The translations under genes and the position numbers were made by a program. Shown here piece by piece: positions 42,547 to 54,592 of a DNA stretch of 64,000 nucleotides. Origin of the DNA: Candidatus Babeliales bacterium (lineage in GTDB: Bacteria; Babelota; Babeliae; Babelales; Vermiphilaceae); the NCBI GenBank assembly GCA_963743635.1, contig CAVUQO010000002.1, forward strand, positions 352,001-416,000, written 5' to 3'. Numbering within the stretch: position 1 is the stretch's first letter; every line of letters begins with the position of its first letter. The notes under the pieces are model-generated. The model searched no databases and was not told where the DNA came from. It saw only the letters and a list, made by a program, of their open reading frames with translations.

Positions 42547-43014
42547 ATGCCTGGTTACAGACAACATTTAGTAGGTGGTGCAGTTGCCTATCTTTCATTG
42601 CTATTACTCTGTTCGTGGCTGAATCCAACGTTCACCACCGCGATCGAGTGGTTGGGATTTTGTTTGATTGGGTCACTGTTTCCCGATATTGATATCGGCA
42701 GTAAAGGAAGATATGTATTTTATCGTATCTTCCTTATTTTTTTACTCGTGTTTCTGGTGCGGCAAAATACCATGGCGCTCTGCCTTCTGGGCGTACTCAT
42801 GATCTTGCCGATGCTGGTTTCGCATCGTGGATTATTCCATCGATGGTGGTTTGTAACGGGATTGCCGTTTGCGGTTGCTGGGCTTTGTAGTTGTTCGTTT
42901 GCAACGTGTCAAGATGCTTTCATGCTTGATGCATTTTTCTTCGCCGCAGGCGCATTATCACATTTATATCTTGATTTAGGATTGCGCAAAATGATGCGTG
43001 TACGCTCCCGTTAA
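42547..43014 (+). CDS. Metal-dependent membrane hydrolase (YdjM/LexA-binding family)
   Basis: N-terminal His, GSLFPDID, HRGLFH, SHLYLD. Confidence 0.85.
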   Translation: MPGYRQHLVGGAVAYLSLLLLCSWLNPTFTTAIEWLGFCLIGSLFPDIDIGSKGRYVFYRIFLIFLLVFLVRQNTMALCLLGVLMILPMLVSHRGLFHRWWFVTGLPFAVAGLCSCSFATCQDAFMLDAFFFAAGALSHLYLDLGLRKMMRVRSR

Positions 43015-43550
43015 TGAGATTGGTTGGATTTTGACATACGCAGGGTTAATGTTGCGCAGTAAGAAGATTCAGCTGGTATTGCCTGAGAAGGTTCTCTGCG
43101 TGAGTATGCGGAATCACCAAAATTTACGTTGGTCACTTCTTGATCCATATTCACGGTAACCTCGCGCGTTACGGATTCCTCGACGGGTTTGAGACGCATG
43201 ATCGTGTGCATGTAATGGCACTGGCATTTGATATTCGCTGCATTTTCATTGATTGCAGTAACCGTTACTATCGCTGTTGCTCCCGGTATCGTTAATGTTT
43301 TTGTCGAAGGGAGTAACGGATTTATCAATTTTCCATCTTGAGTAGGAAAATATAATCTTTGACTATCCCTGCCGTGTTTTGCACTCAAGTAAGCACCGAT
43401 AAATATCATCGCGTTGGCTTGTTTTTGAGTGTCAGCGGGAATGCTCGTGTTGCTTGAGGCATCATCCATTGCTTGGAGTGCAAAGGGGAATAGTAAGATA
43501 ATTGAGAATGTCATTCTGAGTGATGCCGTAGACATGTATCGAAGAATCAT
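43011..43550 (-). CDS. Secreted orphan protein (array family); N-terminus palindrome-derived
   Basis: MILRYMSTASLRM then TFSIILLFPFALQA-MDD. Confidence 0.72.
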   Translation of the reverse strand: MILRYMSTASLRMTFSIILLFPFALQAMDDASSNTSIPADTQKQANAMIFIGAYLSAKHGRDSQRLYFPTQDGKLINPLLPSTKTLTIPGATAIVTVTAINENAANIKCQCHYMHTIMRLKPVEESVTREVTVNMDQEVTNVNFGDSAYSRREPSQAIPAESSYCATLTLRMSKSNQSH

Positions 43551-43621
43551 GGGAGCCCTTTTTATAGTGAGGTAAAAAACTTGCAGCATCTTAGCACAAA
43601 AATAAGTTCCTGCAAAATCTA

Positions 43622-45031
43622 TTATTTTTTAGCACTTGAAGAAGCCGATACCAAGTACAGCGCAATAAAGCCGGCGATAAATCCAGGAATGAGTGGTAAA
43701 TGATTGAGCCAGAGGCCAGTTGAGGGCCAGATTGCTGCCGTTAAGCCACCAGCTAAGATACTTGCAAGTGCTCCATAGCGATTGACGCCTGTGCCGTAGA
43801 GTGATGCAATCACGAACGGGCCAAATGAGCTGCCGAGTCCGGACCATGCATAGTTTACCAAATTCATCACCGTCGTACTTTCTTCCCACGCAATACACAG
43901 CGCAATGCCTGATACCACTAATGCCGCGCAGCGAGATACGAAAATAAGTTGTTTTGAAGTGGCATTCTTTTTAAACCATTGCCCATAAATATCTTCTGCA
44001 ATTACCGATCCTGAGATCAGGATATGACTATCCATGGTGGAAAGCGTTGCAGCGAGAATGCCGCAGAGTGCAAATCCGGCGATAAGCGGTGGGAATAATT
44101 CTTTTGCCATGAAAATGAAAATGAGTTCATTATTCGCCATCTCTGGATAATAGGCAACGCCAATAATCCCAATGAATACAGCCGCGAGGAGTACCATGAT
44201 TTGCCACGATATACCAATGCGTTTTGCGTATTTGATTTTAGTAACATCATCGATTGCCATGAAATTCACTAGAATGTGCGGCTGACCAAAATAACCAAGA
44301 CCCCAGCCCAGTGCAAGCAAGAGACCGCTCAATAAATCGGTCTGTGTCGCCGCAAGGTTAAACGATAATCCTTTTGCGTAGAATGCGTCGCTAATGATAT
44401 TCCAAGAACCAAGTTTGATATAAGCAGCAACGGGTACCAACACGATCATGGCGAGTAAGAACATGCCTTGAAAAAAGTCACACCATGCAACGGCAATAAA
44501 GCCGCCAATGAGTGTGTAGAGTGCGGCACACGTTAAGGCGAGTATGATTCCTTGTTGATATTCTAATCCTAATCCAGCTTTAAAGAGCCATCCAAGACCA
44601 ACGAGTCCTGACGCAATATAAAAGGTAAAAAAGAGCACGGTCATGAGTGCGCTCACGAGGCGAATCATGCCGGACGTGTCATTAAATCGGTGTTCAAAAA
44701 ATGATGAGAGGGTAAGGCTGTGATATTTTTCAGTTGCCATGCGTAGTTTTGGCGCGATGTATTGCCAGTTAAGATACATACCAATTACGAGTCCGATTGG
44801 CATCCATGCTGCGGTTAACCCCTTCATATAAACCCAAGAGGGCACCGCGAGAAAGAGATATGCTCCCATATCGGTTGCCTGAGTAGCAACGGCAGTGACC
44901 CAATAATTGATGGATCGATTGCCAAGCATAAATTCTGAAGACGTAGCTTTATTGTGCCAAGAGACCATTAAGCCGATCAGCGTAAGGGCACAAAAATAGA
45001 TGATAAACGCAGTTACAATAAGAGTATCCAT
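43622..45031 (-). CDS. putP: Sodium/proline symporter
   Basis: SSS family; GGFIAVAWCDFFQG, WGLGYFGQPHIL, ILAATLSTMDS, YAWSGLGSSFGP. Confidence 0.9.
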   Translation of the reverse strand: MDTLIVTAFIIYFCALTLIGLMVSWHNKATSSEFMLGNRSINYWVTAVATQATDMGAYLFLAVPSWVYMKGLTAAWMPIGLVIGMYLNWQYIAPKLRMATEKYHSLTLSSFFEHRFNDTSGMIRLVSALMTVLFFTFYIASGLVGLGWLFKAGLGLEYQQGIILALTCAALYTLIGGFIAVAWCDFFQGMFLLAMIVLVPVAAYIKLGSWNIISDAFYAKGLSFNLAATQTDLLSGLLLALGWGLGYFGQPHILVNFMAIDDVTKIKYAKRIGISWQIMVLLAAVFIGIIGVAYYPEMANNELIFIFMAKELFPPLIAGFALCGILAATLSTMDSHILISGSVIAEDIYGQWFKKNATSKQLIFVSRCAALVVSGIALCIAWEESTTVMNLVNYAWSGLGSSFGPFVIASLYGTGVNRYGALASILAGGLTAAIWPSTGLWLNHLPLIPGFIAGFIALYLVSASSSAKK

Positions 45032-45104
45032 AAAGACCTCATAGGTTTATAGGAAAATATTTTTTTTAATAGGGCAAGATTAGGTATTAGGAAAAGGGTA
45101 CCCG

Positions 45105-45176
45105 TTAGGGACGGGATACGCAAGGCCTTGCTTGAATGGGGCAAGAGATAAGAAGAAGCGCGATGGCATACTTCAT
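45105..45176 (-). CDS. 23-aa uORF upstream of putP (MKYAIALLLISCPIQARPCVSRP); effector remnant or leader peptide
   Basis: AGGAAAGG RBS, ATG 45176, TAA 45105; signal-like sequence similar to array members. Confidence 0.45.
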   Translation of the reverse strand: MKYAIALLLISCPIQARPCVSRP

Positions 45177-45239
45177 AAAGAACCTTTCCTAACTTGGAAA
45201 TAAAAACAACATCATTTTAGCAGATTGAGAGGAGTATGG

Positions 45240-45725
45240 CTATTGTTTTTGAAATACTGAAATCCTATCTGCCAGAATCCTGAGTGTACAGGATAGGTGA
45301 GGGAGAACTCTTTCAAATGAGGTGCCGTCTTGGGCTAAGTAATCGAATGTCACCATTTTAGCTTCTTGTATCACTTCAATTCCCGATTGAGTTCTTTTTT
45401 GTATGGAGTACATGATGGTTAGGATTGATTTTAGGGAAAGGGGAAGTTGTACGCGCTGGTCTGGATTAAAAGAGAGATTTGCCGATTCTATATTTACGCT
45501 ATACCTATCATAGGGTTGTGGCGGCTTTTGGGCGGGTTTGAGCGTATTATCATTAAGATCAATATAAGAATATTTTCCGGTATAAATCGTGTCCTGGGAG
45601 TCATTGTCTACGAGAGTTGGTGTGACATATAGGTATTGTAAGGGCACGGGTTGGGGGCGTGAACCAGATGGCGCAGTGTGTGTGGTGCAAGAGATGAGCA
45701 GAAGGAGGGTGATACCGTGCTTCAT
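45240..45725 (-). CDS. Secreted orphan protein (array family)
   Basis: MKHGITLLLLISCTTHTA signal, AGGA RBS, beta-rich pattern. Confidence 0.72.
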   Translation of the reverse strand: MKHGITLLLLISCTTHTAPSGSRPQPVPLQYLYVTPTLVDNDSQDTIYTGKYSYIDLNDNTLKPAQKPPQPYDRYSVNIESANLSFNPDQRVQLPLSLKSILTIMYSIQKRTQSGIEVIQEAKMVTFDYLAQDGTSFERVLPHLSCTLRILADRISVFQKQ

Positions 45726-45884
45726 AACTATTTCATCCTAAAGAGTGTCCATAACAAACTTATTATGATTTTATGTGAAAATATAACGCTAGTGAGTATA
45801 GCAGTCTCGATACTTTTTGTAAGAAGGTCGGGCGATATAATGAATTTTAATTCGTTATATGTTTAACCATTGGAGAGAAATTGG

Positions 45885-46346
45885 CTAGTTTTCGAGCGGT
45901 TGGACGACTAAGAGCTTTCTCGTGTTTTTTATTGAGATCTCGAGATCTATCTTTTGCCCGTCATGGACTACAGTATCGGAGTGGTCTTCCGTACGATTAT
46001 GACCCACTTTAAATAATTTTTGCTCAGAATAGAGACGAGTGGAATCATTGCGGTCACCTTTTCTCAGGGAGTATTTTACGAGCATTTCTGAAAATCTCTT
46101 GTCTAGTGTTATGCTTACTATTTTAGCAGTGAGAAAGTAGTCACTTGTTTGGGGTTCCGTTTGCCATCCTTGGAGTTTGAGTTCGTCATTAACCACTCTG
46201 TGATATACCTCTTGATTGTAGAGAACCTGCTTGCTCGATAAAATTTGTGTAGCGATTGTATATTCTTGTTCTATTTCTGTTTTTATTTCCATAGCATTGA
46301 GCATGAAGGGCGTGCATAGAAATATCAGGGACAGTATGTGTATCAT
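45885..46346 (-). CDS. Secreted orphan protein (array family)
   Basis: MIHILSLIFLCTPFMLNA-MEIK; AAGG RBS before 46346. Confidence 0.75.
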   Translation of the reverse strand: MIHILSLIFLCTPFMLNAMEIKTEIEQEYTIATQILSSKQVLYNQEVYHRVVNDELKLQGWQTEPQTSDYFLTAKIVSITLDKRFSEMLVKYSLRKGDRNDSTRLYSEQKLFKVGHNRTEDHSDTVVHDGQKIDLEISIKNTRKLLVVQPLEN

Positions 46347-46419
46347 GATGAACCTTTTGTGGCTGTGAATAGTAAATAATGCTTTATTATAGCATGTTTT
46401 TGCCATCATGTGAATAATC

Positions 46420-46539
46420 TCAAGTAAAAACCGGACCTGATAGTTTCTCAGATTCCATTGCATTGAGTGCAAGGGGTCCCGTCGAAAAGCTGAGGATAAG
46501 GATGATCGGGATGGGGAGGGTGCGAGTCCGCAGATTCAT
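46420..46539 (-). pseudogene. Truncated array member (MNLRTRTLPIPIILILSFSTGPLALNA-MESEK...)
   Basis: AAGGA RBS, intact signal with A-ME junction, stop after 39 aa. Confidence 0.55.
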
Positions 46540-46553
46540 AAATAATCCTTTAA

Positions 46554-46882
46554 TTAATTCTCTTTATCCAATATCAGGTGCTCTGCTTTAATCACTGCTA
46601 AGTATTGTGTATATGATGATTCTTGAGCTATACCAATGGTAAGTTCTTCTCCGAAGGGAACGGTGATCGTTGCGGAATTCACCTCTTTTGGACATAAGTT
46701 CGAAATTGTTTTGCTTAGCTCCCATACATTCTTACTACAGCCTGGTTGGATTCATCTTCATCGATGGACTCCATGCAGCGGACGAGGTGTGGTGAGAAAA
46801 AAAGTGTGAGAATCAGGCCCTTCGACAGTATTCCTACAGGGCTCAGAATGAGCGGGAAAGTAATGATATTTTTGAAAGACAT
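46554..46882 (-). pseudogene. Frameshifted, shortened array member with in-frame palindromic element in its signal
   Basis: MSFKNIITF[PLILSPVGILSKG]LILTLFFSPHLVRC-MESID..., continuing in a shifted frame as WELSK..ATITVPFGEELTI..KEN*. Confidence 0.6.
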
Positions 46883-47034
46883 GATAATTTTTTCGTTGTT
46901 AGATTTGTGTTTCCTGCGCTTTTTTCAAAAGTAGCTTTATGGTAAGTATATGTTTAATTGCAGCTGTTGGGTAGGGATTTTCTTGTATTCCCCAATGTAA
47001 ATGGATGCCCCAAATTCATAATAATCATCCTTAA

Positions 47035-47556
47035 TTAAAAACTTACTGTTTGTTTAATGCTCATGATGAATTTTTCATTATCCAATGATATGAATTGCGT
47101 GTGTGGATCGCGTTGCAATAAATTAATATCCATCATTACTGGCGCGGTCTTTTGAGAAGCGGCTTCAGGATCAGTCGTTGTCTTGAGGAGAGAATATTGG
47201 AGTATGATTTTTTGAAACAATGCGCGCCAATCGCGTTGATTCACTTTGCTTCCATCGGTAATCAATTTCAAGAGTTTTGTTTGCACACCATATTCTTGAG
47301 ATGCTTGCGGCACATCGGCGTCAGTGAGGTTACGTGTGGCATACCTCGAGTCATGCGAATAAATCCCATAGGTGTGAGTATGATCATAGAGCAGTGTCTG
47401 TTCTTCTTGTTGCCTACACACGGTGATCGCGAGCGCGATGGTTATAAGAGGTTTTTGAGGGGGCATTGCGGGTTTAGAAATTCTTAGACCTGCATGCACA
47501 TGAGATATGAAAAATAATCCATGCATGACAGGAATAATGAGAGCTTTTTTAATCAT
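47035..47556 (-). CDS. Secreted orphan protein (array family)
   Basis: MIKKALIIPVMHGLFFISHVHA-GLRISK; AAGGA RBS. Confidence 0.75.
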   Translation of the reverse strand: MIKKALIIPVMHGLFFISHVHAGLRISKPAMPPQKPLITIALAITVCRQQEEQTLLYDHTHTYGIYSHDSRYATRNLTDADVPQASQEYGVQTKLLKLITDGSKVNQRDWRALFQKIILQYSLLKTTTDPEAASQKTAPVMMDINLLQRDPHTQFISLDNEKFIMSIKQTVSF

Positions 47557-47702
47557 AACAATCCTTATTATAAAAATCAGATCCATTGCAGACCCGATCC
47601 AGGGTAATGATTGTCTGCCAAGTGGGTCAAGAGTTTAGTCTTGCTGCGTAAAATTTACCGCATTAGGCCTTTGTTACAGTCTTTTCATCGTTTCAGAAGA
47701 AA

Positions 47703-48173
47703 TTATTTTTTGATGGTGCTTTGAATGGTTACCTGTATCGGCTGGCCGAATTCATCGTGCATCGATAATGGATATGTTTTGGCACTTGAGGCATTAAGGG
47801 GAATTTTTATTGTGCCAACAGCCGATGGGCCTTCTACTTTTTTTACTTTGCATTCGAATTCGGCATAGCCTGTATCGCGATCGACTTCTTGGAGTTCTAT
47901 TTCTAAATTATAACTTTCGGTATCTTGATGGCCAGCCAAGAGCCCGCCAGTTGTAGGCACTAAGGTATCAGATTGTCCTTTGAAATATAGAAATCTTGCA
48001 ACGCTGCGCGTGCCATTCTTTTGAGGAATTTTCATTTCAGCAACGATATTCATTTGCGATGGCAGAGAATGTAACATGAGAGAGTTGAATGCACGCATCG
48101 CTGCATTGTCATAACGCTGCATTGCATGGCTGACAGCGGGAAGTAATAATAGGAGTGCTAAAAAATGTCTCAC
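47703..48173 (-). CDS. Secreted orphan protein (array family)
   Basis: GTG start, RHFLALLLLLPAVSHA-MQRY; AAGGA RBS. Confidence 0.75.
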   Translation of the reverse strand: MRHFLALLLLLPAVSHAMQRYDNAAMRAFNSLMLHSLPSQMNIVAEMKIPQKNGTRSVARFLYFKGQSDTLVPTTGGLLAGHQDTESYNLEIELQEVDRDTGYAEFECKVKKVEGPSAVGTIKIPLNASSAKTYPLSMHDEFGQPIQVTIQSTIKK

Positions 48174-48390
48174 TAATTTTCCTTGGTTCTTAACATATTG
48201 AAGAATAAATGCTATATAAACTCGATTTATAGTATCAAAGTAGACATTTTTATTCAATGATTAGGAGGAAATAGACCTTTATATATTCATAGTATGACTT
48301 AGAAAATGAATGCGATTTACAATGGCCTTATATTGTAATCGAAAAAAAGTATTTAAATGTTATGAAGATATCTTAATGAAAGAATAACTA

Positions 48391-49431
48391 ATGAAAAAAT
48401 CACTATCAATACTGGTATTAGCACTTGCAATATCAGCGAACGCATACGCAGCAGAAGTAAGTACCTTCAGTGAACATGCGATCATATTCTCAGGCAATGC
48501 AACGAAAGAGTTGGCGCAAAGTATAGCGGACTACTTGGGAGTCAATCTAGGTTCGGCGATCGTATCAAAATTTAATGATGGAGAAATCCAGATCCAGGCG
48601 CAGGAAAGTGTGCGGGGTAAGGATGTCTTTATCGTGCAATCAACCTGCCATACTGTAACCCAAAGCGTGAATGATAACTTGATGGAATTATTCTTGCTCA
48701 TTCGTACTATGAAGCGAGCATCGGCCGCAAGCATTACAATCGTTATCCCCTACTATGGTTATGCACGGCAAGATCGCAAAGCGATGTCTCGCGTGCCAAT
48801 TTCCGCAGCGGACGTTGCAATGATGTTAGAAGAAGGTGGTGCCGATCGCGTGTTAACGATCGATTTACACTGCGGACAAATTCAAGGGTTTTTCCGTAAT
48901 GTACCGGTTGACAACTTATTCTCATCGCCGATTTTTATCGACTATTTTGTAAACAAACAACTCGATAACGTGGTGGTGGTTTCTCCCGATGCAGGCGGCG
49001 TGGATCGTGCGTATAAGTTTGCACAACAATTGCGCAAAAAAGGCGTACCTGCTGAAATGGCGCTCATTAGCAAACGTCGCGCAAGCGCGGGCGTCATTGA
49101 ATCGATGTATTTGATTGGTGATGTGAATGGCGCTGATGCGATTATTGTTGATGATATTTGTGATACGGCAGGAACGCTAGTCAAGGCTGCGCAATTGCTC
49201 AAAGATAATGGTGCGCGTCGCGTGTTTGCGGTCATTCCGCACGGAGTCTTTTCGGGCAATGCACTCGATAAGATTCGTAAATCAGTGATTTGCGAAATGG
49301 TGATTGCAGATACCGTTCCATTGCGCGAGCAAGCGCCAGACAATCTCGTCGTTCTTTCAGTGAGTAAGTTATTGGGCGATGCGATATTGCGCATTTATAA
49401 CGGCAATTCGGTATCTGCATTGTTTGACTAA
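48391..49431 (+). CDS. prs: Ribose-phosphate pyrophosphokinase with N-terminal Sec signal peptide
   Basis: FNDGE, ESVRGKDV, PYYGYARQDRK, DLHCGQIQGFF, VSPDAGG, IIVDDICDTAGTL; preceded by MKKSLSILVLALAISANAYA. Confidence 0.95.
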   Translation: MKKSLSILVLALAISANAYAAEVSTFSEHAIIFSGNATKELAQSIADYLGVNLGSAIVSKFNDGEIQIQAQESVRGKDVFIVQSTCHTVTQSVNDNLMELFLLIRTMKRASAASITIVIPYYGYARQDRKAMSRVPISAADVAMMLEEGGADRVLTIDLHCGQIQGFFRNVPVDNLFSSPIFIDYFVNKQLDNVVVVSPDAGGVDRAYKFAQQLRKKGVPAEMALISKRRASAGVIESMYLIGDVNGADAIIVDDICDTAGTLVKAAQLLKDNGARRVFAVIPHGVFSGNALDKIRKSVICEMVIADTVPLREQAPDNLVVLSVSKLLGDAILRIYNGNSVSALFD

Positions 49432-49546
49432 CCCTTCGTGACAGCCTGAGGGTGCCGTAAGTCATCTTACTCCGCATCCTTCCGTCTTCGCCCCGGTCAT
49501 CCTGAGGCCCGAAGGGATCGAAGGACGTCGGACTACGTCGTCACAT
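49430..49546. repeat. Nested palindromic elements (type A inside type B)
   Basis: cctt-ccgtcttcgc[cccggtcatcctgaggcccgaagggatcgaagga]cgtcggactacgtcgtcaca. Confidence 0.65.
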
Positions 49547-49587
49547 TTTTCATATCACGTCCTTCTCTGCGCTGCGGAATGTTATAA

Positions 49588-49620
49588 TAAACCCCCAGGA
49601 TTAATCGTCCTGGGCTTTTC
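49588..49620. terminator. Terminator between prs and convergent array gene
   Basis: cccagga-ttaatcg-tcctggg-cttttc. Confidence 0.7.
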
Positions 49621-49644
49621 TATTAACGCGAACTATAGTGTTTT

Positions 49645-50154
49645 TTAATGTAGATATTCTGAGCTTGGATATATTTCTATGCGTAGTAAAAAAGCGTCAT
49701 AACCACGTTCCTGGAATCTTTCTTCATGCTGAATTTTAGATTGCGCATGCAACGGAAGCACTATAGATTGTGCCTGGTGCAGGATAACAGGTTCATCATT
49801 TTCTTTTCTTTTGCTGAGTGCATATTGCAGCGCAGCGTTTCGAGTAGTTGGGCATATCCCGAGCTTTACTTCTGCGCTATAGGTATAGTTTTGGTTGTCT
49901 TCCCCATTTTCTGTTGGGTCAGATTTTCCTGGGTTATCGGCATTCATTAAATAGCCTTTTTCTTTATAGAGCGTAGGTCGCAGAGCATCATCGACAGTGT
50001 ATTGTGACATCTTTATAAAAAAATCTTCTTGAGTCTTCTCATTGATCAGATGCACTGACATGACAAGGTGCTTTATAGCACCTGGTGGAGAGCTCTTGGG
50101 CCCCGCTTCAAGCGTCAAGGGCAAGAGTAGCAGTAATCGAGCAATATGTGTCAT
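49645..50154 (-). CDS. Secreted orphan protein (array family)
   Basis: MTHIARLLLLLPLTLEA-GPKSS. Confidence 0.78.
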   Translation of the reverse strand: MTHIARLLLLLPLTLEAGPKSSPPGAIKHLVMSVHLINEKTQEDFFIKMSQYTVDDALRPTLYKEKGYLMNADNPGKSDPTENGEDNQNYTYSAEVKLGICPTTRNAALQYALSKRKENDEPVILHQAQSIVLPLHAQSKIQHEERFQERGYDAFLLRIEIYPSSEYLH

Positions 50155-50312
50155 GAACTTCCCTTTTTAAAGCACTATGAACATGTCCGATTGAGCATTA
50201 TAGATGAGCTCGGATGGTTACACAAGTAAATGCGGGATAAGGAGCATGCAAAGTGCCATTCTAAAAGCTGCACGCAGCTCTGATTGCATTGAGTAATCTT
50301 CTTTTTGAGAGC

Positions 50313-50780
50313 TTAAGGAAGAGCTTTTACTTGGTATTTTATTGCTGCAGACCCATCATCATGATTTTTACATACGCTTAATAATTCTATTAAATACTTC
50401 TTAGATTGAATCGTGGGATCACGAGGCAATGTAGAGCAGGTGATTGCTTGAGGTTTATTATGCTTCCTCTCATGGTCAATAAGGTCTATGAAAAGAGATG
50501 TGAGCCCATTCGTGCGTATAAAATCATGACCGTAAAGATCCATGGTGACTTGTGCTGCGGTGATTATGAAATCATCAACATACGGAACGGGCATTTCGAG
50601 TGCTGCTCTTTCCGCCATTGGTCCAGGCCTTGGTGCTGGTTGATCTTTACCAGCCATAACGGTGAGTGGAAAAAGCAAGCAGAGCATGGCGAGTGAAAAT
50701 ATATTATTCATCCTGAGTAATGCGGTACGCATGTATCGACTGCGTCCGACGAAGTTTTTAAATGTAGACGGAAGGGTCAT
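50313..50780 (-). CDS. Secreted orphan protein with nested palindromic elements encoding its N-terminus
   Basis: MTL[PSTFKNFVGRS]RYMRTALLRM-NNIFSLAMLCLLFPLTVMA-GKD; AAGGA RBS before 50780. Confidence 0.68.
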   Translation of the reverse strand: MTLPSTFKNFVGRSRYMRTALLRMNNIFSLAMLCLLFPLTVMAGKDQPAPRPGPMAERAALEMPVPYVDDFIITAAQVTMDLYGHDFIRTNGLTSLFIDLIDHERKHNKPQAITCSTLPRDPTIQSKKYLIELLSVCKNHDDGSAAIKYQVKALP

Positions 50781-50819
50781 GGGATCCTTATTGTTCGGTC
50801 CGTGGTGATAATGAGATTT

Positions 50820-51383
50820 TTAATCAATGAGTTGTTGGTAGGCGTTAATCATGAGTATAACCGTATCTCGAGGGATTAGATGGTCCAGTTCGGTTTCAAT
50901 GATACATACATGCATTGCCTCAGGACCAATATCTAAATGTATCGCATCGTATTTATTCACATTGACTGCATCACTTCTGGCAATTATGGTGCGGTCAGGG
51001 TTAACGTTTACCGTTGTGATAGCAAGTTGTGTGTTGAGGATATAGTCGCAATATACTTGATAATTCGATTGATCTACATCTATTGCCGATGTTTTGACCG
51101 TATATTTTTCGCGCCATGCAGCTATCTTGCGTTCAGCATTATCGGCATGAATTTTTCTTTTATCGTCATTACTATCAAGATGAAATTCATCGTAACATTC
51201 GAATGTATCATCGTGGTTGCGGCGATAGTATGCCTGATGGGAAAAGATTGTTTCGCGCGTGGTGGTATTGATAAGCGCCGATGCGATTACTATTTTTGCA
51301 AGAGGGGGTGCGGATGGAAGCCCCGCTTCCATTGCATTAAGCGCAAGAGAAAAGAGCAACAGAGGTGCGCATATTTTTTTCAT
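50820..51383 (-). CDS. Secreted orphan protein (array family)
   Basis: MKKICAPLLLFSLALNA-MEAG. Confidence 0.78.
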   Translation of the reverse strand: MKKICAPLLLFSLALNAMEAGLPSAPPLAKIVIASALINTTTRETIFSHQAYYRRNHDDTFECYDEFHLDSNDDKRKIHADNAERKIAAWREKYTVKTSAIDVDQSNYQVYCDYILNTQLAITTVNVNPDRTIIARSDAVNVNKYDAIHLDIGPEAMHVCIIETELDHLIPRDTVILMINAYQQLID

Positions 51384-51479
51384 GAAAACCTTGTGAATGA
51401 AAAGTATTAATACAACGTGACAAGTTTATCACAATTTAATGCGTCATAAAAGTGAATTGTGCTGATGTGTAATACAAAA

Positions 51480-51989
51480 TTAGTCGATCGTTTCTACACT
51501 ATCATCATCGGCAAGGGACGTCATAGCGATATCATTCTCGTTTCTTATATTGATGAGTGAAACTTTGAATTTTAAGAGCATGTCATCATCTAATTTTGTG
51601 GTGACTGTGCGACCAAATTTGATTTCTATAGGGTACTCTTTGGGCATAGCGCCTTTACCCAATCGTACCCAACAGCTTAATGACGCAGTTTTTTCTGCTT
51701 GATTGAAGGTAGCATTCTCGATGGTGATGCGATTATCTTTAATAACTATCTCGCGCGGGGTCTCTATTTTTGTATAAGTATCATTATCGTTGTACCTATA
51801 GTTGTGACACTCCTGTGAAATTACCTGTCCACTGCGTGCAGCGCAGAGTGCTGCGTCAATACGTAAGTCTTTGTTCTTGGTGCACATACAAGGCATGCAG
51901 GCCGTGAGTATTGTTAATATGGACGTACACGGTCCAGGTATCGTGAGTAAGGGGTGTATGACGCATAGTAGGGCTATAAGACGTTTCAT
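51480..51989 (-). CDS. Secreted orphan protein, Cys-rich N-terminus (array family)
   Basis: AGGAG RBS; MKRLIALLCVIHPLLTIP-GPCTS..ACMPCMC. Confidence 0.78.
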   Translation of the reverse strand: MKRLIALLCVIHPLLTIPGPCTSILTILTACMPCMCTKNKDLRIDAALCAARSGQVISQECHNYRYNDNDTYTKIETPREIVIKDNRITIENATFNQAEKTASLSCWVRLGKGAMPKEYPIEIKFGRTVTTKLDDDMLLKFKVSLINIRNENDIAMTSLADDDSVETID

Positions 51990-52019
51990 GATTTCTCCTT
52001 TTTTTAGTAAAATAACCCC

Positions 52020-52571
52020 TTAAGGATTACGATTATTCGAAATGGTTAATTCAACTTTGCGTTTGGTATCATCGGTGATGTCTAGTTTAAATGTCATTGA
52101 AAAATCGGTATGCAATGGCACTTCCACCTCTTTTTCGATGATGTGCTCGGTTGCGTACGTTTTTGTTATACATCGAATGATCACCGATTTTGAAGATTGA
52201 CCGAGTAAGCTGAGCTCTGCTTCATGGAGATATGAGGAAGGCTCAATGGTGGTTAATCTATCGGGGGTGACAACCAAAGAAGAATCATTTTTTGTTAAAT
52301 ATAAATGTTTGGCAATAGAGTGGAGGGTAGTCTGTGTTTGTGGTTGTGCACCGATTACTATTTCATTCGTGTACTGATTGCGGGCATAAGATCCTGGCAC
52401 AATACGTTTCACATAAAATTCAAGTACCGCGCTAATGCGTATTGCTGATGGAAGATCTGTTAGAAGCGATACGCTATCTGTGGTTGGAATTTTAGGGTGT
52501 GGGCGGGACATGCAAGCTCCTGCCGCAAGCAGCATTGGACATGCTGCGAACGCTAAAATAAGACGTTTCAC
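52020..52571 (-). CDS. Secreted orphan protein (array family)
   Basis: GTG start after AAGGGGGG; KRLILAFAACPMLLAA-GACMSRP. Confidence 0.75.
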   Translation of the reverse strand: MKRLILAFAACPMLLAAGACMSRPHPKIPTTDSVSLLTDLPSAIRISAVLEFYVKRIVPGSYARNQYTNEIVIGAQPQTQTTLHSIAKHLYLTKNDSSLVVTPDRLTTIEPSSYLHEAELSLLGQSSKSVIIRCITKTYATEHIIEKEVEVPLHTDFSMTFKLDITDDTKRKVELTISNNRNP

Positions 52572-52670
52572 GATCCCCCCTTTTTCCATTCTCATTGTTC
52601 CCTTGCATAGAAGGCTAGCACAAAGTGGATGGATAAAAAAAGATAAAGCGTCTTAGAGGCAGTTTTCGTG

Positions 52671-53160
52671 TTAAGAGTTGTTATTCATATGCTTATCATC
52701 GTGCGGGATTGACCAGGTATCATCTTGAATGGGCAGCGGTGCAAAGCTTACCTGTTTAATGATGCGTGGCCTGACCGCCTCATTGATTGGGGATAATGAG
52801 AATCGGACATACTTGGTCGGGTCTGCGGGATATGATTTGACGATGTTTTGCATGCCAAACATAATATGAGCCATCACGAGGGTGGGTTTATTGCTGCCCG
52901 TTGGTATATCATATTCAATTGCTGCATACCGAGCTTTATGATAGATCGTACACTTTTTTAAGGTGATTTTATGCTGCGTGTGAGATAAATCGTTCGATGT
53001 ATAATTACCTTGGTCATCCACAGTATAGACTGTGTGTTCTACCGCTTCTCCCGTCTCCGCTTCCTATTACACAAATAGATGCAGTCAAGTGCATGATATC
53101 TGGCCCAGCGATAATTGATAATGGATATGTCATAAGCAGCATAATAAGACGATGGTTCAT
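52671..53160 (-). CDS. Secreted orphan protein (array family), frameshift near 53020
   Basis: GGAGG RBS; MNHRLIMLLMTYPLSIIA-GPD..., joins the 52671-53021 frame. Confidence 0.65.
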
Positions 53161-53311
53161 AGTTTTCCCTCCACAATTACAGTATTCCCAAAAAAGGAGG
53201 GTAGCAGAATTGCTTATAATAAAAAAAGGGAATGCGTTTTTGGTACACATTCCCTGAATAGATAGGTCGTTTTTTTAACGGTTATTATTACCTGCATTAT
53301 CATTCGTTATA

Positions 53312-53463
53312 GAATCTATCCCAAAATTAATTTTTGACATGAAAATGAAAGGTTTTTCATCTCCGTTACCCATTCGATACGCTTCGCTACTCAGGGCGAA
53401 CGGGGAATAAATATCATTATTGAGTAATTAATTCTAAGAATCTATGAATTTTGGAGTAGGTTC
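53312..53463. mobile_element. MITE-like element with TIRs enclosing a type A palindrome
   Basis: gaatctatcccaaaatt ... aattttggagtaggttc; inner ccattcgatacgcttcgctactcagggcgaacgggg. Confidence 0.65.
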
Positions 53464-53511
53464 ATAGTCAGATGTATGCTCTGGTAGGAGCTCTGTGAGA
53501 TGCGCTTCTAT

Positions 53512-54057
53512 TCATTGCTTATCTTGGATGATATAGGCGCCCGCTTTTACGATAATGGTTGGATCATCAGTTTCATATTCTTTAAACTCATTGAATGAGA
53601 AATCTCTATTATCTTTTGTAATTGGGGCATTGAACGCGTTTAACAGAGCGATAGAGGTGCTTATGCTTTCGGTAGTACGGTTGCTTGATTCAACGGGATC
53701 ATCTTCCAGCAAAGTATCAATATCTTCTGCTATGCGTTGTTGTTCAGGGCGTGGGCGCGGATTATATATAGCCTCAAAATCTATTCGGCATGTTTTAATG
53801 TCGCCGCCGCATACAAAAACGGGAATACTATATTTCAGATCATCACTGGGTTTTTTATGTTGAGCTCCAAGACCTGTCTTTTCATTGTAGATGTTATACG
53901 CATAAGCCAAGGTTTCGTGAGTACCACTGGATGAGGCATTTTTTTTGAGTATTTCTACCATGATTTTCACCGTCAGGTCTTTGGGCTTAGAATTGGATTG
54001 CCCAGCATGGACGATGATTGGTAACAGAAGGATAAGTAAGCTGACGGCGTGTTTCAT
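53512..54057 (-). CDS. Secreted orphan protein (array family)
   Basis: MKHAVSLLILLLPIIVHA-GQSNSKPK; AGGA RBS. Confidence 0.78.
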   Translation of the reverse strand: MKHAVSLLILLLPIIVHAGQSNSKPKDLTVKIMVEILKKNASSSGTHETLAYAYNIYNEKTGLGAQHKKPSDDLKYSIPVFVCGGDIKTCRIDFEAIYNPRPRPEQQRIAEDIDTLLEDDPVESSNRTTESISTSIALLNAFNAPITKDNRDFSFNEFKEYETDDPTIIVKAGAYIIQDKQ

Positions 54058-54064
54058 AAGGATC

Positions 54065-54592
54065 CTATTCATTGCCCGGATCACTTTTTATTTCAGACAA
54101 AAGTATATGCATATGAAGCATTGGATTGGTTGGATCTTTGCAAACCAGTGGGCACTTGCCACTAAAGTCCAATCTCAACCTGTCTTCTATTCGTTGGCCA
54201 TCTTTTTGGGTAGTGTACCGCAGAGATACGGTACTCAGCAAATGTTTCTCAAAAGCAGCAGATTGTATGATTGGCGTCAGAGTATATCCGTTTGAACTGA
54301 TGTTTTTAGTATAGGTGGCAGTCGCAGGAGCGAGATTAGAAATGCCATTTTTGCAGTTTCTAAATATCGCATAGTAGCTTGCTATAACTCTGGGATCATG
54401 GTCAGGAAGATCATCAATATCGTCCGAAAGAATGTGCCAGGTAAGTTTTAAATCAACTTTGCGATCATTATCTGGTTGCGATCGCATTGTATACGATCTA
54501 TCTTGCATTGCCATCATAGTGATCGGGCAGCATGTCAGAAGTAGTCCAAAGGACGAAGACTGAAGCAGAAGGAAAATGAGTATTCGTTTCAT
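54065..54592 (-). CDS. Secreted orphan protein with 33-bp type B palindrome in its signal peptide
   Basis: MKRILIFLLL[QSSSFGLLLTC]CPITMMA-MQDR. Confidence 0.75.
   Translation of the reverse strand: MKRILIFLLLQSSSFGLLLTCCPITMMAMQDRSYTMRSQPDNDRKVDLKLTWHILSDDIDDLPDHDPRVIASYYAIFRNCKNGISNLAPATATYTKNISSNGYTLTPIIQSAAFEKHLLSTVSLRYTTQKDGQRIEDRLRLDFSGKCPLVCKDPTNPMLHMHILLSEIKSDPGNE

What the first reader, a model, noticed from the sequence alone, without database searches (positions are those of the whole stretch)
43011..54592. Palindromic repeats inserted in frame into effector signal peptides (Rickettsia RPE-like)
Seen: elements that are intergenic elsewhere occur in frame in 5' coding regions. (a) 46818-46856, 39 nt, type A, encodes PLILSPVGILSKG. 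(b) 54530-54562, 33 nt, type B, encodes QSSSFGLLLTC; removing it leaves a canonical MKRILIFLLL-CPITMMA signal. (c) The 43550 gene begins with a type A copy, LRYMSTASLRM. (d) The 50780 gene has the equivalent LRYMRTALLRM with a further 33-nt type B copy (50739-50771) nested in it. (e) A degenerate LILSFSTG occurs in the 46539 remnant. The inserts in (a), (b) and (d) are multiples of 3. Known: Rickettsia palindromic elements create in-frame peptides. Inference: cleaved signal peptides act as a safe harbour, and the inserts may tune export or translation through 5' hairpins.
Basis: partly seen in the sequence, partly recalled or inferred. Interest (0 to 1): 0.82.

Follow-up and report, generated by a model that had tools for sequence, protein, structure and literature searches.

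The report
In-frame palindromic repeats in signal peptides
Short hairpin-forming repeats that litter this amoeba-associated bacterium's genome have landed, in frame, in the export-signal codons of several small secreted proteins and in a few housekeeping genes, a new example of a known phenomenon.

Summary
Three of the five items hold.

- **(b)** A 33-nt type B copy scores 33.2 bits. Two homologues (71% and 65% identical) lack exactly its 11 residues.
- **(c)** A 36-nt type A copy sits directly after the start codon. A syntenic relative keeps the same leader, ribosome-binding site and ATGA but has no element.
- **(d)** A type B plus type A composite scores 39.8 and 36 bits. No homologue exists to test an empty site.
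- **(a)** Marginal, at 12.4 bits.
- **(e)** Unsupported.

Both families are structured repeats, mostly intergenic, and widespread in Babeliales (Dependentiae). In-frame copies are not special to signal peptides. They also sit in MetRS (11 orthologues lack the insert), MutL, a UvrD-like helicase and a DEAD-box helicase. In a second genus they sit in MnmE and GrpE.

- "Safe harbour" is plausible only as passive tolerance.
- "Effector" is untested.
- "Hairpin tuning" has no support: fold z-scores range from -1.5 to +1.2.

New detail: half of the ATGA-ended type A copies abut a stop codon or the TGA inside ATGA.

Closest known are the Rickettsia RPEs and the GTAG/CGTC-tagged REPs. This scan has noted in-frame repeats in signal peptides of other genomes before.

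The parts
54530..54562 (-). (b) 33-nt type B (CGTC-tagged) hairpin element, in frame in the hydrophobic core of the signal peptide; encodes QSSSFGLLLTC
   Evidence: R2 hit 54528-54567(-), 33.2 bits. Homologues P0002 and P0003 lack exactly these 11 residues. Contigs of runs X1 and X3 cover it with 0 differences.
54065..54592 (-). Host gene of (b): 175-aa small secreted protein of unknown function, otherwise intact
   Evidence: ORF. No Pfam family. Aligns over 97-98% of its length with the homologues, at 71% and 65% identity by BLASTP (75% and 70% in the MAFFT alignment).
43511..43546 (-). (c) 36-nt type A element directly after ATGA of the start codon; ends in ATGA, giving a second in-frame ATG at 43514-43512
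   Evidence: R1 hit 43511-43545(-), 22.8 bits. Syntenic locus L057 keeps the leader, SD and ATGA but has no element. Homologues P0006-P0008 start MK.I..IILL.
43011..43550 (-). Host gene of (c): 179-aa secreted all-beta protein; the ancestral start is ATG 43550-43548
   Evidence: Fold model has pLDDT above 90 in the core, and residues 1-44 are of low confidence.
50708..50776 (-). (d) 69-nt composite (type A 5' end, type B module, type A hairpin and 3' end) between ATGA 50780-50777 and a regenerated ATG at 50711-50709
   Evidence: R2 hit 50738-50776(-), 39.8 bits. R1 hit 50707-50742(-), 36 bits. The same composite architecture occurs at C2:431480 and C3:459793.
50313..50780 (-). Host gene of (d): 155-aa orphan secreted protein; AAGGA lies 4 nt before ATG 50780
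   Evidence: No close homologue, so no empty-site test was possible.
46813..46856 (+). (a) probable degenerate superfamily copy, antisense to a 55-aa gene remnant (46715-46882, minus strand), read as PLILSPVGILSKG
   Evidence: R1 gives only 12.4 bits, E 0.12 per window. Both terminal boxes match. The host ORF is truncated.
46478..46505 (+). (e) claimed degenerate copy in the 39-aa remnant starting at 46539; not supported
   Evidence: No R1 or R2 hit at E<=10. Found only by a permissive pattern.
53365..53404 (+). Intergenic type A-superfamily copy inside the array
   Evidence: R1, 50.3 bits.
49492..49530 (-). Intergenic superfamily copy inside the array
   Evidence: R1, 21.8 bits.

Best explanation
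The genome is a 1.45-Mb Dependentiae/Babeliales genome. It carries a modular superfamily of short REP-like hairpin repeats.

- **Type A.** CCCTTCGATAC, a covarying 5-bp stem, then TACTCAGG(A/G)(T/C)GA. It bears the GTAG tag on the other strand.
- **Type B.** CCGTCT(T/A)CG, a stem, then CT(T/A)CG(T/C)CGGAC(A/G). It is CGTC-tagged.

The repeats spread as selfish DNA. Copies that landed in coding sequence survive only where the length is a multiple of three, the frame is open, and the 11-23 added residues are harmless. The tolerated places are disordered loops and linkers of housekeeping proteins and the cleaved N-terminal signal peptides of small, fast-evolving secreted proteins.

In this array, (b) is an insertion into the hydrophobic core of a signal peptide. 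(c) and (d) are insertions directly after the start codon.

**Shown:** family membership, hairpin covariation, empty sites for (b) and (c), and conservation of the upstream SD and ATG for (c).

**Inferred:**
- Translation still starts at the upstream ATG, so the element is translated into a longer, basic n-region.
- The peptide is removed with the signal.
- Persistence reflects tolerance, not a regulatory function.
- The array is hit often because it lies in an element-rich variable region.
For: **Family and structure**
- Model scores for (b), (c) and (d).
- Stems covary. Type A: 88% of cells paired, with 0 of 500 shuffles reaching the observed covariation score or paired fraction (12 of 500 reached the count of pairs changed on both sides, 149 of 500 the count of further pair types). 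Type B: 89.7% paired, again 0 of 500 on those two measures.

**Empty sites**
- (b): 2 of 2 homologues lack the 11 residues.
- (c): 3 of 3 homologues and the syntenic locus L057 lack the element, while the leader, SD and ATGA are conserved.

**Start codons**
- SD-like AAGG/AGGA lies 4-8 nt before the upstream ATG in (c), (d) and C3:352442.
- In this genome AGGA is present upstream of 39% of unambiguous starts, against 7% background.

**Same families in frame in conserved genes**
- MetRS has 14 residues between its two CxxC motifs. The 11 orthologues are 10-16 residues shorter at that spot.
- MutL linker, UvrD-like C-terminus and DEAD-box N-terminus.
- MnmE and GrpE in genome G017.

**Local density**
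- The array holds 6 hits in 11.8 kb against 1.2 expected.

**Frame use**
- Type B is read in a neutral or hydrophobic frame in the two signal peptides (QSSSFGLLLTC, PSTFKNFVGRS). It is read in a charged frame in MutL and DEAD-box (SVFAEATSDRQ, SVFAKASSDRS).
Against: - There is no expression or N-terminal protein data. No RNA run holds the region.
- (c), (d) and C3:352442 each regenerate an in-frame ATG directly before a normal-length signal peptide. Translation could therefore start downstream, leaving the element untranslated.
- (d) has no homologue, so no empty site was shown.
- (a) and (e) lie in gene remnants. Some insertions may therefore accompany or cause gene decay.
- Enrichment at N-termini is nominal: 6 of 12 host genes against 14% expected, p about 0.003. 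It rests on hand curation and uncertain starts.
- In G017 only 1 of 5-6 in-gene copies is next to a signal-like region.
- No transposase was found that could move the elements (the genome is 85% complete).
Confidence: 0.8

Rival explanations
1. For (c), (d) and C3:352442 the element is not translated. It lies in what is now a 5' leader, and the protein starts at the ATG that the element's own ...CAG(G/A)ATGA end supplies.
For: - In all three, the second ATG is followed at once by a signal peptide of normal length (15-20 residues), like those of the homologues.
- Di Nocera et al. 2013 (PMC3733652, passages read) judge that many REPs at predicted ORF N-termini are extragenic.
Against: - No SD-like motif stands at a normal distance before the second ATG. 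The upstream ATG has one in all three.
- For (c), the upstream SD and ATG are conserved with the syntenic relative.
- The frame is open between the two ATGs in all three.
- This reading cannot apply to (b), where the insert lies after the only start, inside the hydrophobic core.
Confidence: 0.25
2. The inserts are adaptive. Their hairpins tune translation initiation or export of the secreted proteins.
For: - The elements are structured, with covarying stems.
- They sit within the first 25 codons.
- Three hits fall in one array.
Against: - The 5' regions fold no better than shuffles: z = -0.08 (b), +1.21 (c), +0.09 (d), -1.48 (a).
- The in-gene copies score lower than intergenic ones, for example (c) at 22.8 bits against 50-64 bits.
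- The same elements sit in housekeeping genes and mostly between genes.
- Homologues do without them.
Confidence: 0.1
3. Type A lands at codon 2 because of insertion-site choice, not because signal peptides are safe. The ATGA-ended subfamily integrates directly 3' of T(A/G)A, which is any stop codon and also the TGA inside ATGA. Being 36 nt long and ending in ATGA, it restores both the frame and a start codon.
For: - Of 26 ATGA-ended R1 copies, 10 have a same-strand predicted gene's stop codon abutting or within a few bases of the left box. In 8 the stop directly abuts it, one lies 1 nt off and one about 5 nt off.
- 3 more of the 26 sit at ATGA starts. None of the 75 GCGA-ended copies does either.
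- 36 nt is the commonest length (8 copies).
Against: - T(A/G)A may simply be part of the element's imperfect terminal inverted repeat.
- No target-site duplication is seen, and no transposase was found.
- REP ends supplying stop codons are already described (PMC3733652, passage).
- (b) is type B and lies mid-peptide, so this cannot explain it.
- In C3:352442 the TGA is one codon further away.
Confidence: 0.3
4. The resemblances are chance, or reflect shared ancestry of paralogous signal peptides, not inserted elements.
For: - (e) has no model support and (a) is marginal.
- The (c) and (d) peptides resemble each other.
Against: - Genome-wide E-values run from 8e-5 to 2e-7 for (b) and (d), and 0.002 for (c).
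- Seeds excluded the candidates.
- Homologues of (b) and (c) lack the segments.
Confidence: 0.03

Closest known systems
Rickettsia palindromic elements (RPE; Ogata et al. 2000, 2002, as summarised in PMC10969869 and PMC3733652; passages read)
   Same: - Dispersed palindromic repeats of an obligate intracellular bacterium.
- Many are inserted in frame in unrelated genes, with the host ORF kept.
- Orthologues lack the insert.
- N-terminal inserts are known.
- R. conorii RPE sequences end in CGTC according to PMC3733652, like type B here.
   Different: - Different phylum (Dependentiae).
- Much shorter: 27-69 nt here, against about 150 bp stated for the first RPEs.
- No sequence homology was tested.
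- Here the documented cases include the hydrophobic core of a signal peptide and codon 2.
GTAG- and CGTC-tagged REPs (Di Nocera et al. 2013, PMC3733652; passages read)
   Same: - Short tagged stem-loops.
- Several families per genome.
- Mostly downstream of ORFs.
- Ends that supply stop codons.
- Intragenic copies in repair genes (UvrD), tRNA synthetases and RNA helicases.
- Many copies at ORF N-termini.
   Different: - No RAYT/Y1 transposase was found here.
- Dependentiae is not among the phyla named in the passages I read.
- The paper treats many N-terminal cases as probably untranslated and does not discuss signal peptides. Its two uses of the word "signal" are unrelated.
- Its Additional file 3, listing the intragenic REPs, was not opened.
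Intragenic MITEs giving in-frame fusions (ERIC, QMITE1, Anabaena MITEs; review PMC10969869, passages read)
   Same: Non-autonomous repeats that can be read through in frame.
   Different: No clear terminal inverted repeats with target-site duplication here. The elements are smaller. The review text has no occurrence of "signal peptide".

Membership tests
Rickettsia palindromic elements (RPE) | Dispersed, hairpin-forming repeat family | tested here: met
   130 R1 matches and 68 R2 matches at E<=10 in the genome. Stems covary.
Rickettsia palindromic elements (RPE) | In-frame insertion in protein-coding genes, with orthologues lacking the insert | tested here: met
   MetRS against 11 orthologues. 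(b) against 2 homologues. (c) against 3 homologues and syntenic DNA.
Rickettsia palindromic elements (RPE) | Sequence homology to the RPE-1 to RPE-10 families, in the genus Rickettsia | not tested
   No RPE sequences were at hand. The organism is Dependentiae/Babeliales by MetRS relatives. No Rfam family matches the elements.
CGTC-tagged REPs (Di Nocera 2013) | Short stem-loop with CGTC at one end | tested here: met
   Type B alignment A2: C7, G8 and C10 are invariant and T9 is at least 90% conserved, at the foot of the outer stem. (d) keeps CGTC. (b) keeps only GTC: it reads CAGTC where the consensus has CCGTC.
GTAG-tagged REPs (Di Nocera 2013) | Short stem-loop with GTAG at one end | tested here: met
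   12 of 16 type A seeds read CTAC (GTAG on the other strand) directly beside the inner stem. 4 of 16 read TTAC or CTCC.
GTAG/CGTC-tagged REPs | Associated RAYT (Y1 transposase, PF01797) in the genome | tested here: not met
   No PF01797 match in G000, while the control genomes matched. The genome is 85% complete, and the paper notes that REPtrons can be missing.
MITE (type II) | Terminal inverted repeats with target-site duplication | tested here: inconclusive
   The ends are only imperfectly complementary. The triplet to the left varies while the right end is constant, so no duplication is seen.
Secreted effector | Known effector domain or secretion-system signal | tested here: inconclusive
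   None of the 12 array proteins has a Pfam family. Sec-type signal peptides were read by eye only. The model is all-beta. Best Foldseek E is 0.016 and best VIA Z is 6.5, within the noise range.

The most novel reading that the evidence does not exclude
The ATGA-ended type A subfamily seeks codon boundaries. It integrates directly 3' of T(A/G)A, meaning stop codons and the TGA hidden in ATGA starts. Because it is 36 nt long and ends in ATGA, it rebuilds both the reading frame and a start codon. It can therefore colonise the very first codon of genes, notably M-K/M-N/M-T signal peptides, without killing them. Its open frame supplies the basic residues that a signal-peptide n-region wants.
Probability: 0.3. 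Interest if true: 0.65.

Novelty: new member of a known kind. Interest (0 to 1): 0.45.

Why it matters
- **A second lineage.** It extends the Rickettsia-type "selfish DNA inside genes" phenomenon to Dependentiae/Babeliales, another lineage of obligate intracellular bacteria. The element families are shared by many genera of the order: type B (R2) in 19 and type A (R1) in 16 of 30 other genomes searched.
- **A clean proof.** (b) is an empty-site-proven case of a repeat surviving inside the hydrophobic core of a signal peptide.
- **Annotation.** Such inserts lengthen or disguise signal peptides and start codons, so secretome predictions for these genomes will be off.
- **A recurrent pattern.** Together with earlier notes of this scan on other phyla, it suggests that cleaved leaders are a recurrent tolerated site.
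- **A testable clue.** The stop-codon and ATGA association of one subfamily is a clue to how these elements integrate.

Tried and rejected
- One search was over the size limit and was repeated in smaller pieces.
- **Consensus folding.** RNAalifold found no consensus structure on A1. I supplied the structure by eye and tested it by pair counts.
- **Orthologues of (c).** None in 30 related genomes.
- **Homologues of (d).** No close ones. The exhaustive search found only weak matches to repeat domains of giant proteins.
- **Array paralogy.** The array proteins are barely similar to each other, best E about 1e-4, so paralogue-based empty sites were not usable.
- **Unbiased repeat scan.** A scan of an intergenic-repeat library against coding sequence found MetRS, MutL and others. 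It was too insensitive to recover (b), (c) and (d).
- **Signal-peptide predictor.** My crude predictor called 641 ORFs. That is far too permissive, so I dropped it and made no secretome-wide enrichment test.
- **Rfam.** Nothing on the elements.
- **Transposase.** No PF01797 match.
- **Expression.** No RNA holder is listed for the region.
- **Population variation.** The DNA contigs laid showed no allele without the inserts.
- **Structure searches.** No convincing match.
- The sixth sequence (L042:60-165) was the wrong stretch and is ignored.
- **Literature.** Searches for Dependentiae with palindromic, RPE with signal peptide, and MITE with signal peptide and in-frame found no paper on this.

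Full report
**Setting.** The window is C2:352001-416000 of a 1.45-Mb, 42% GC, three-contig genome. Its MetRS is closest (52-62% identity) to records titled Candidatus Dependentiae, Babeliaceae and Babeliales.

Window 43.0-54.6 kb holds about a dozen minus-strand ORFs of 150-190 aa with N-terminal signal-like sequences that typically end ..A|M(E/Q/D). There are also several remnants. None has a Pfam family. They are barely similar to one another, best E about 1e-4.

A fold model of the (c) protein is an eight-strand all-beta domain with core pLDDT above 90. It has no convincing structural relative: Foldseek best E 0.016, VIA best Z 6.5, which is within noise. "Effector" is therefore unverified.

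**The repeat families.** The genome is full of a modular superfamily of short palindromic repeats.

- **Type A** reads CCCTTCGATAC, then a 5-bp stem with a 3-nt loop, then TACTCAGG(A/G)(T/C)GA.
- **Type B** reads CCGTCT(T/A)CG, then a stem, then CT(T/A)CG(T/C)CGGAC(A/G).

I aligned 16 type A and 20 type B copies, none of them the candidates.

- Type A: the stated pairs are 88% standard, and 16 cells are changed on both sides. None of 500 shuffles reached the observed covariation score, paired fraction or count of doubly changed cells (12 and 149 of 500 reached the two weaker measures). Slid controls give 21-56% paired.
- Type B: 89.7% of cells are paired.

RNAalifold alone found nothing.

Type B carries CGTC at the foot of its outer stem. 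12 of 16 type A seeds carry GTAG on the opposite strand beside the inner stem. These are the two tags by which Di Nocera et al. 2013 sort REPs. That paper also states that R. conorii RPE sequences end in CGTC (PMC3733652, passages).

No Y1 transposase (PF01797) was found in this 85%-complete genome.

Both models also hit other genomes of the order at E<=0.001. R2 hits 19 of 30 other genomes and R1 hits 16 of 30, with 1 to 65 copies each.

**The five items.**

- **(b)** scores 33.2 bits with R2, with all pairs standard. E is 8.1e-5 genome-wide.
- **(d)** scores 39.8 bits with R2 and 36 bits with R1. The B-inside-A arrangement recurs at two other loci. It may therefore have arrived as one composite.
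- **(c)** scores 22.8 bits, E 0.0019 genome-wide.
- **(a)** scores 12.4 bits, E 0.12 for the window alone. Both terminal boxes fit. Its host is a 55-aa remnant.
- **(e)** is not scored.

Contigs from four DNA runs of two studies cover the region. (b) is covered by X1 and X3, (c) by X1, X2 and X3, and (d) by X1, X2 and X4. No difference is listed at the elements and no insert-free allele appears.

**Empty sites.**

- **(b)** The protein database holds two homologues, 71% and 65% identical, of 162 and 166 aa. They read MKRILISLLL-CPLTMMAMQ and MKRILISLVL-LPLTMMAMG. They lack exactly QSSSFGLLLTC and align over the rest of the protein.
- **(c)** Three homologues (47-60% identical) start MK(R/H/Y)I(L/F)(P/S)IILL. 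A syntenic metagenome contig runs symporter, one small gene, the homologue, then the YdjM-like gene on the other strand. It keeps the leader, the AAGG-type ribosome-binding site and ATGA at the same place, then runs straight into the signal peptide.

The window's ATG at 43550 is therefore the ancestral start, and the 36-nt element lies directly after ATGA. The exact junction cannot be resolved, because the N-termini also differ by two codons.

- **(d)** No homologue exists.

**Which ATG?** (c), (d) and a third case outside the window (C3:352442-352487, 37.8 bits) share one architecture. An SD-like motif lies 4-8 nt before an ATG. The element follows in an open frame. The element's own ...CAG(G/A)ATGA end then gives a second in-frame ATG, followed at once by a normal signal peptide.

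This genome uses AAGG/AGGA 5-8 nt upstream of starts: 39% of unambiguous starts against 7% background. That favours the upstream ATG. The element would then be read as a basic n-region (LRY....LLRM). The downstream start is not excluded.

**Not special to signal peptides.** I sorted the 109 R1 and 41 R2 hits at E<0.01 against ORFs and checked the hosts by Pfam.

- **MetRS:** PTHSLRSATQGERG, a 42.9-bit copy, lies between the two CxxC motifs. The 11 orthologues are 10-16 residues shorter there.
- **MutL:** three modules in the linker between the N- and C-terminal domains.
- **UvrD-like helicase:** one copy after the helicase domains.
- **DEAD-box helicase:** one copy in the N-terminal RD-rich tail.
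- **MurD-like ligase:** a weak hit.
- **C-terminal tails:** RNase HII and a membrane protein.
- **Another N-terminal case** next to a signal-like core (C2:334969).

In G017, another genus, I examined 52 of the 54 listed hits. In-frame copies lie in MnmE and GrpE. Two lie at N-termini, one of them just before a signal-like hydrophobic stretch of a TPR protein. One forms a C-terminal tail.

The host list (repair genes, tRNA synthetase, RNA helicase) echoes the one in PMC3733652.

**Enrichment.** Counting host genes by hand, 6 of 12 carry the insert within the first 40 codons, and 5 of those 6 are signal-bearing. The first 40 codons make up 14% of coding sequence. The binomial p is about 0.003.

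This is nominal only. Starts are uncertain and n is small. The array is itself a hot spot, with 6 hits in 11.8 kb against 1.2 expected, p 0.0016. My signal-peptide predictor was too permissive to give a denominator.

Type B is read in a neutral or hydrophobic frame in both signal peptides and in a charged frame in MutL and DEAD-box. That fits a selective filter, but it rests on two cases against two.

**Hairpin tuning.** The 5' regions with the elements fold no better than dinucleotide shuffles: z = -0.08, +1.21, +0.09 and -1.48.

**Junction preference.** Of the 26 R1 copies that end in ATGA, 10 have a same-strand predicted gene's stop codon at the left box (8 directly abutting it, one 1 nt and one about 5 nt off). 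3 more sit at ATGA starts. None of the 75 GCGA-ended copies does either. REP ends that supply stop codons are already described (PMC3733652). The start-codon version, and the regeneration of ATG, are what I did not find described.

**Verdict.** This is a real, RPE-like phenomenon in a new lineage, with two clean empty-site proofs.

- It is a new member of a known kind.
- The safe-harbour idea survives only as passive tolerance.
- The regulatory idea has no support.
- Earlier notes of this scan describe in-frame repeats in signal peptides of other phyla. I did not check those notes.

Noticed in passing
genome-wide, e.g. C3:232094-232139, C2:430030-430074, C3:569511-569556 (outside the window): 10 of 26 ATGA-ended type A copies have a same-strand gene's stop codon T(A/G)(A/G) at the element's left box (8 directly abutting). 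0 of 75 GCGA-ended copies do.
   Followed up: partly
G000 C1:16584-17183, C2:7347-7937, C3:789744-790367: Three pilin-like genes carry a GFTLGE-type motif. Each is preceded in frame by about 170 nt that matches 21-23 intergenic repeat segments, with no start codon near the motif. This resembles earlier scan notes on repeats in prepilin leaders.
   Followed up: no
window 48391-49431 (+): The ribose-phosphate pyrophosphokinase ORF begins with a signal-peptide-like MKKSLSILVLALAISANAYAAE. The Pfam domain starts at residue 31. This is odd for a cytoplasmic enzyme; the start may be miscalled.
   Followed up: no
window 52671-53250 (-), base 53057: This array gene is split into two ORFs in the window. 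Contigs of runs X1, X2 and X4 all lack one base at 53057. The frameshift may therefore be an assembly error or a strain difference.
   Followed up: partly
window 53365-53404: One contig of run X2 carries 29 extra letters with type B features inside the loop of this type A-like copy, or of a look-alike elsewhere (table 5c). This suggests that modules nest in one another.
   Followed up: no
window 50313-50780 (-), residues about 42-147: The mature part of the (d) protein weakly matches a domain repeated up to 17-19 times in giant proteins of 2,345-2,430 aa (P0009, P0010).
   Followed up: no
window 30065-31120: Seven tandem copies of a 126-nt unit.
   Followed up: no
G002:C1:524426-524470 and G011:C2:40429-40475: In two relatives a type A copy lies within about 30 nt of the MetRS gene, downstream in G002 and upstream in G011. 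In G000 a copy is inside the gene.
   Followed up: no
G000 C3:802830-805853: A 1008-aa gene carries an internal 20-residue segment (VLQQAQDEREPVHGEQGRTT) that matches at least 3 intergenic repeat segments, up to 6 at its deepest point. Its identity was not checked.
   Followed up: no
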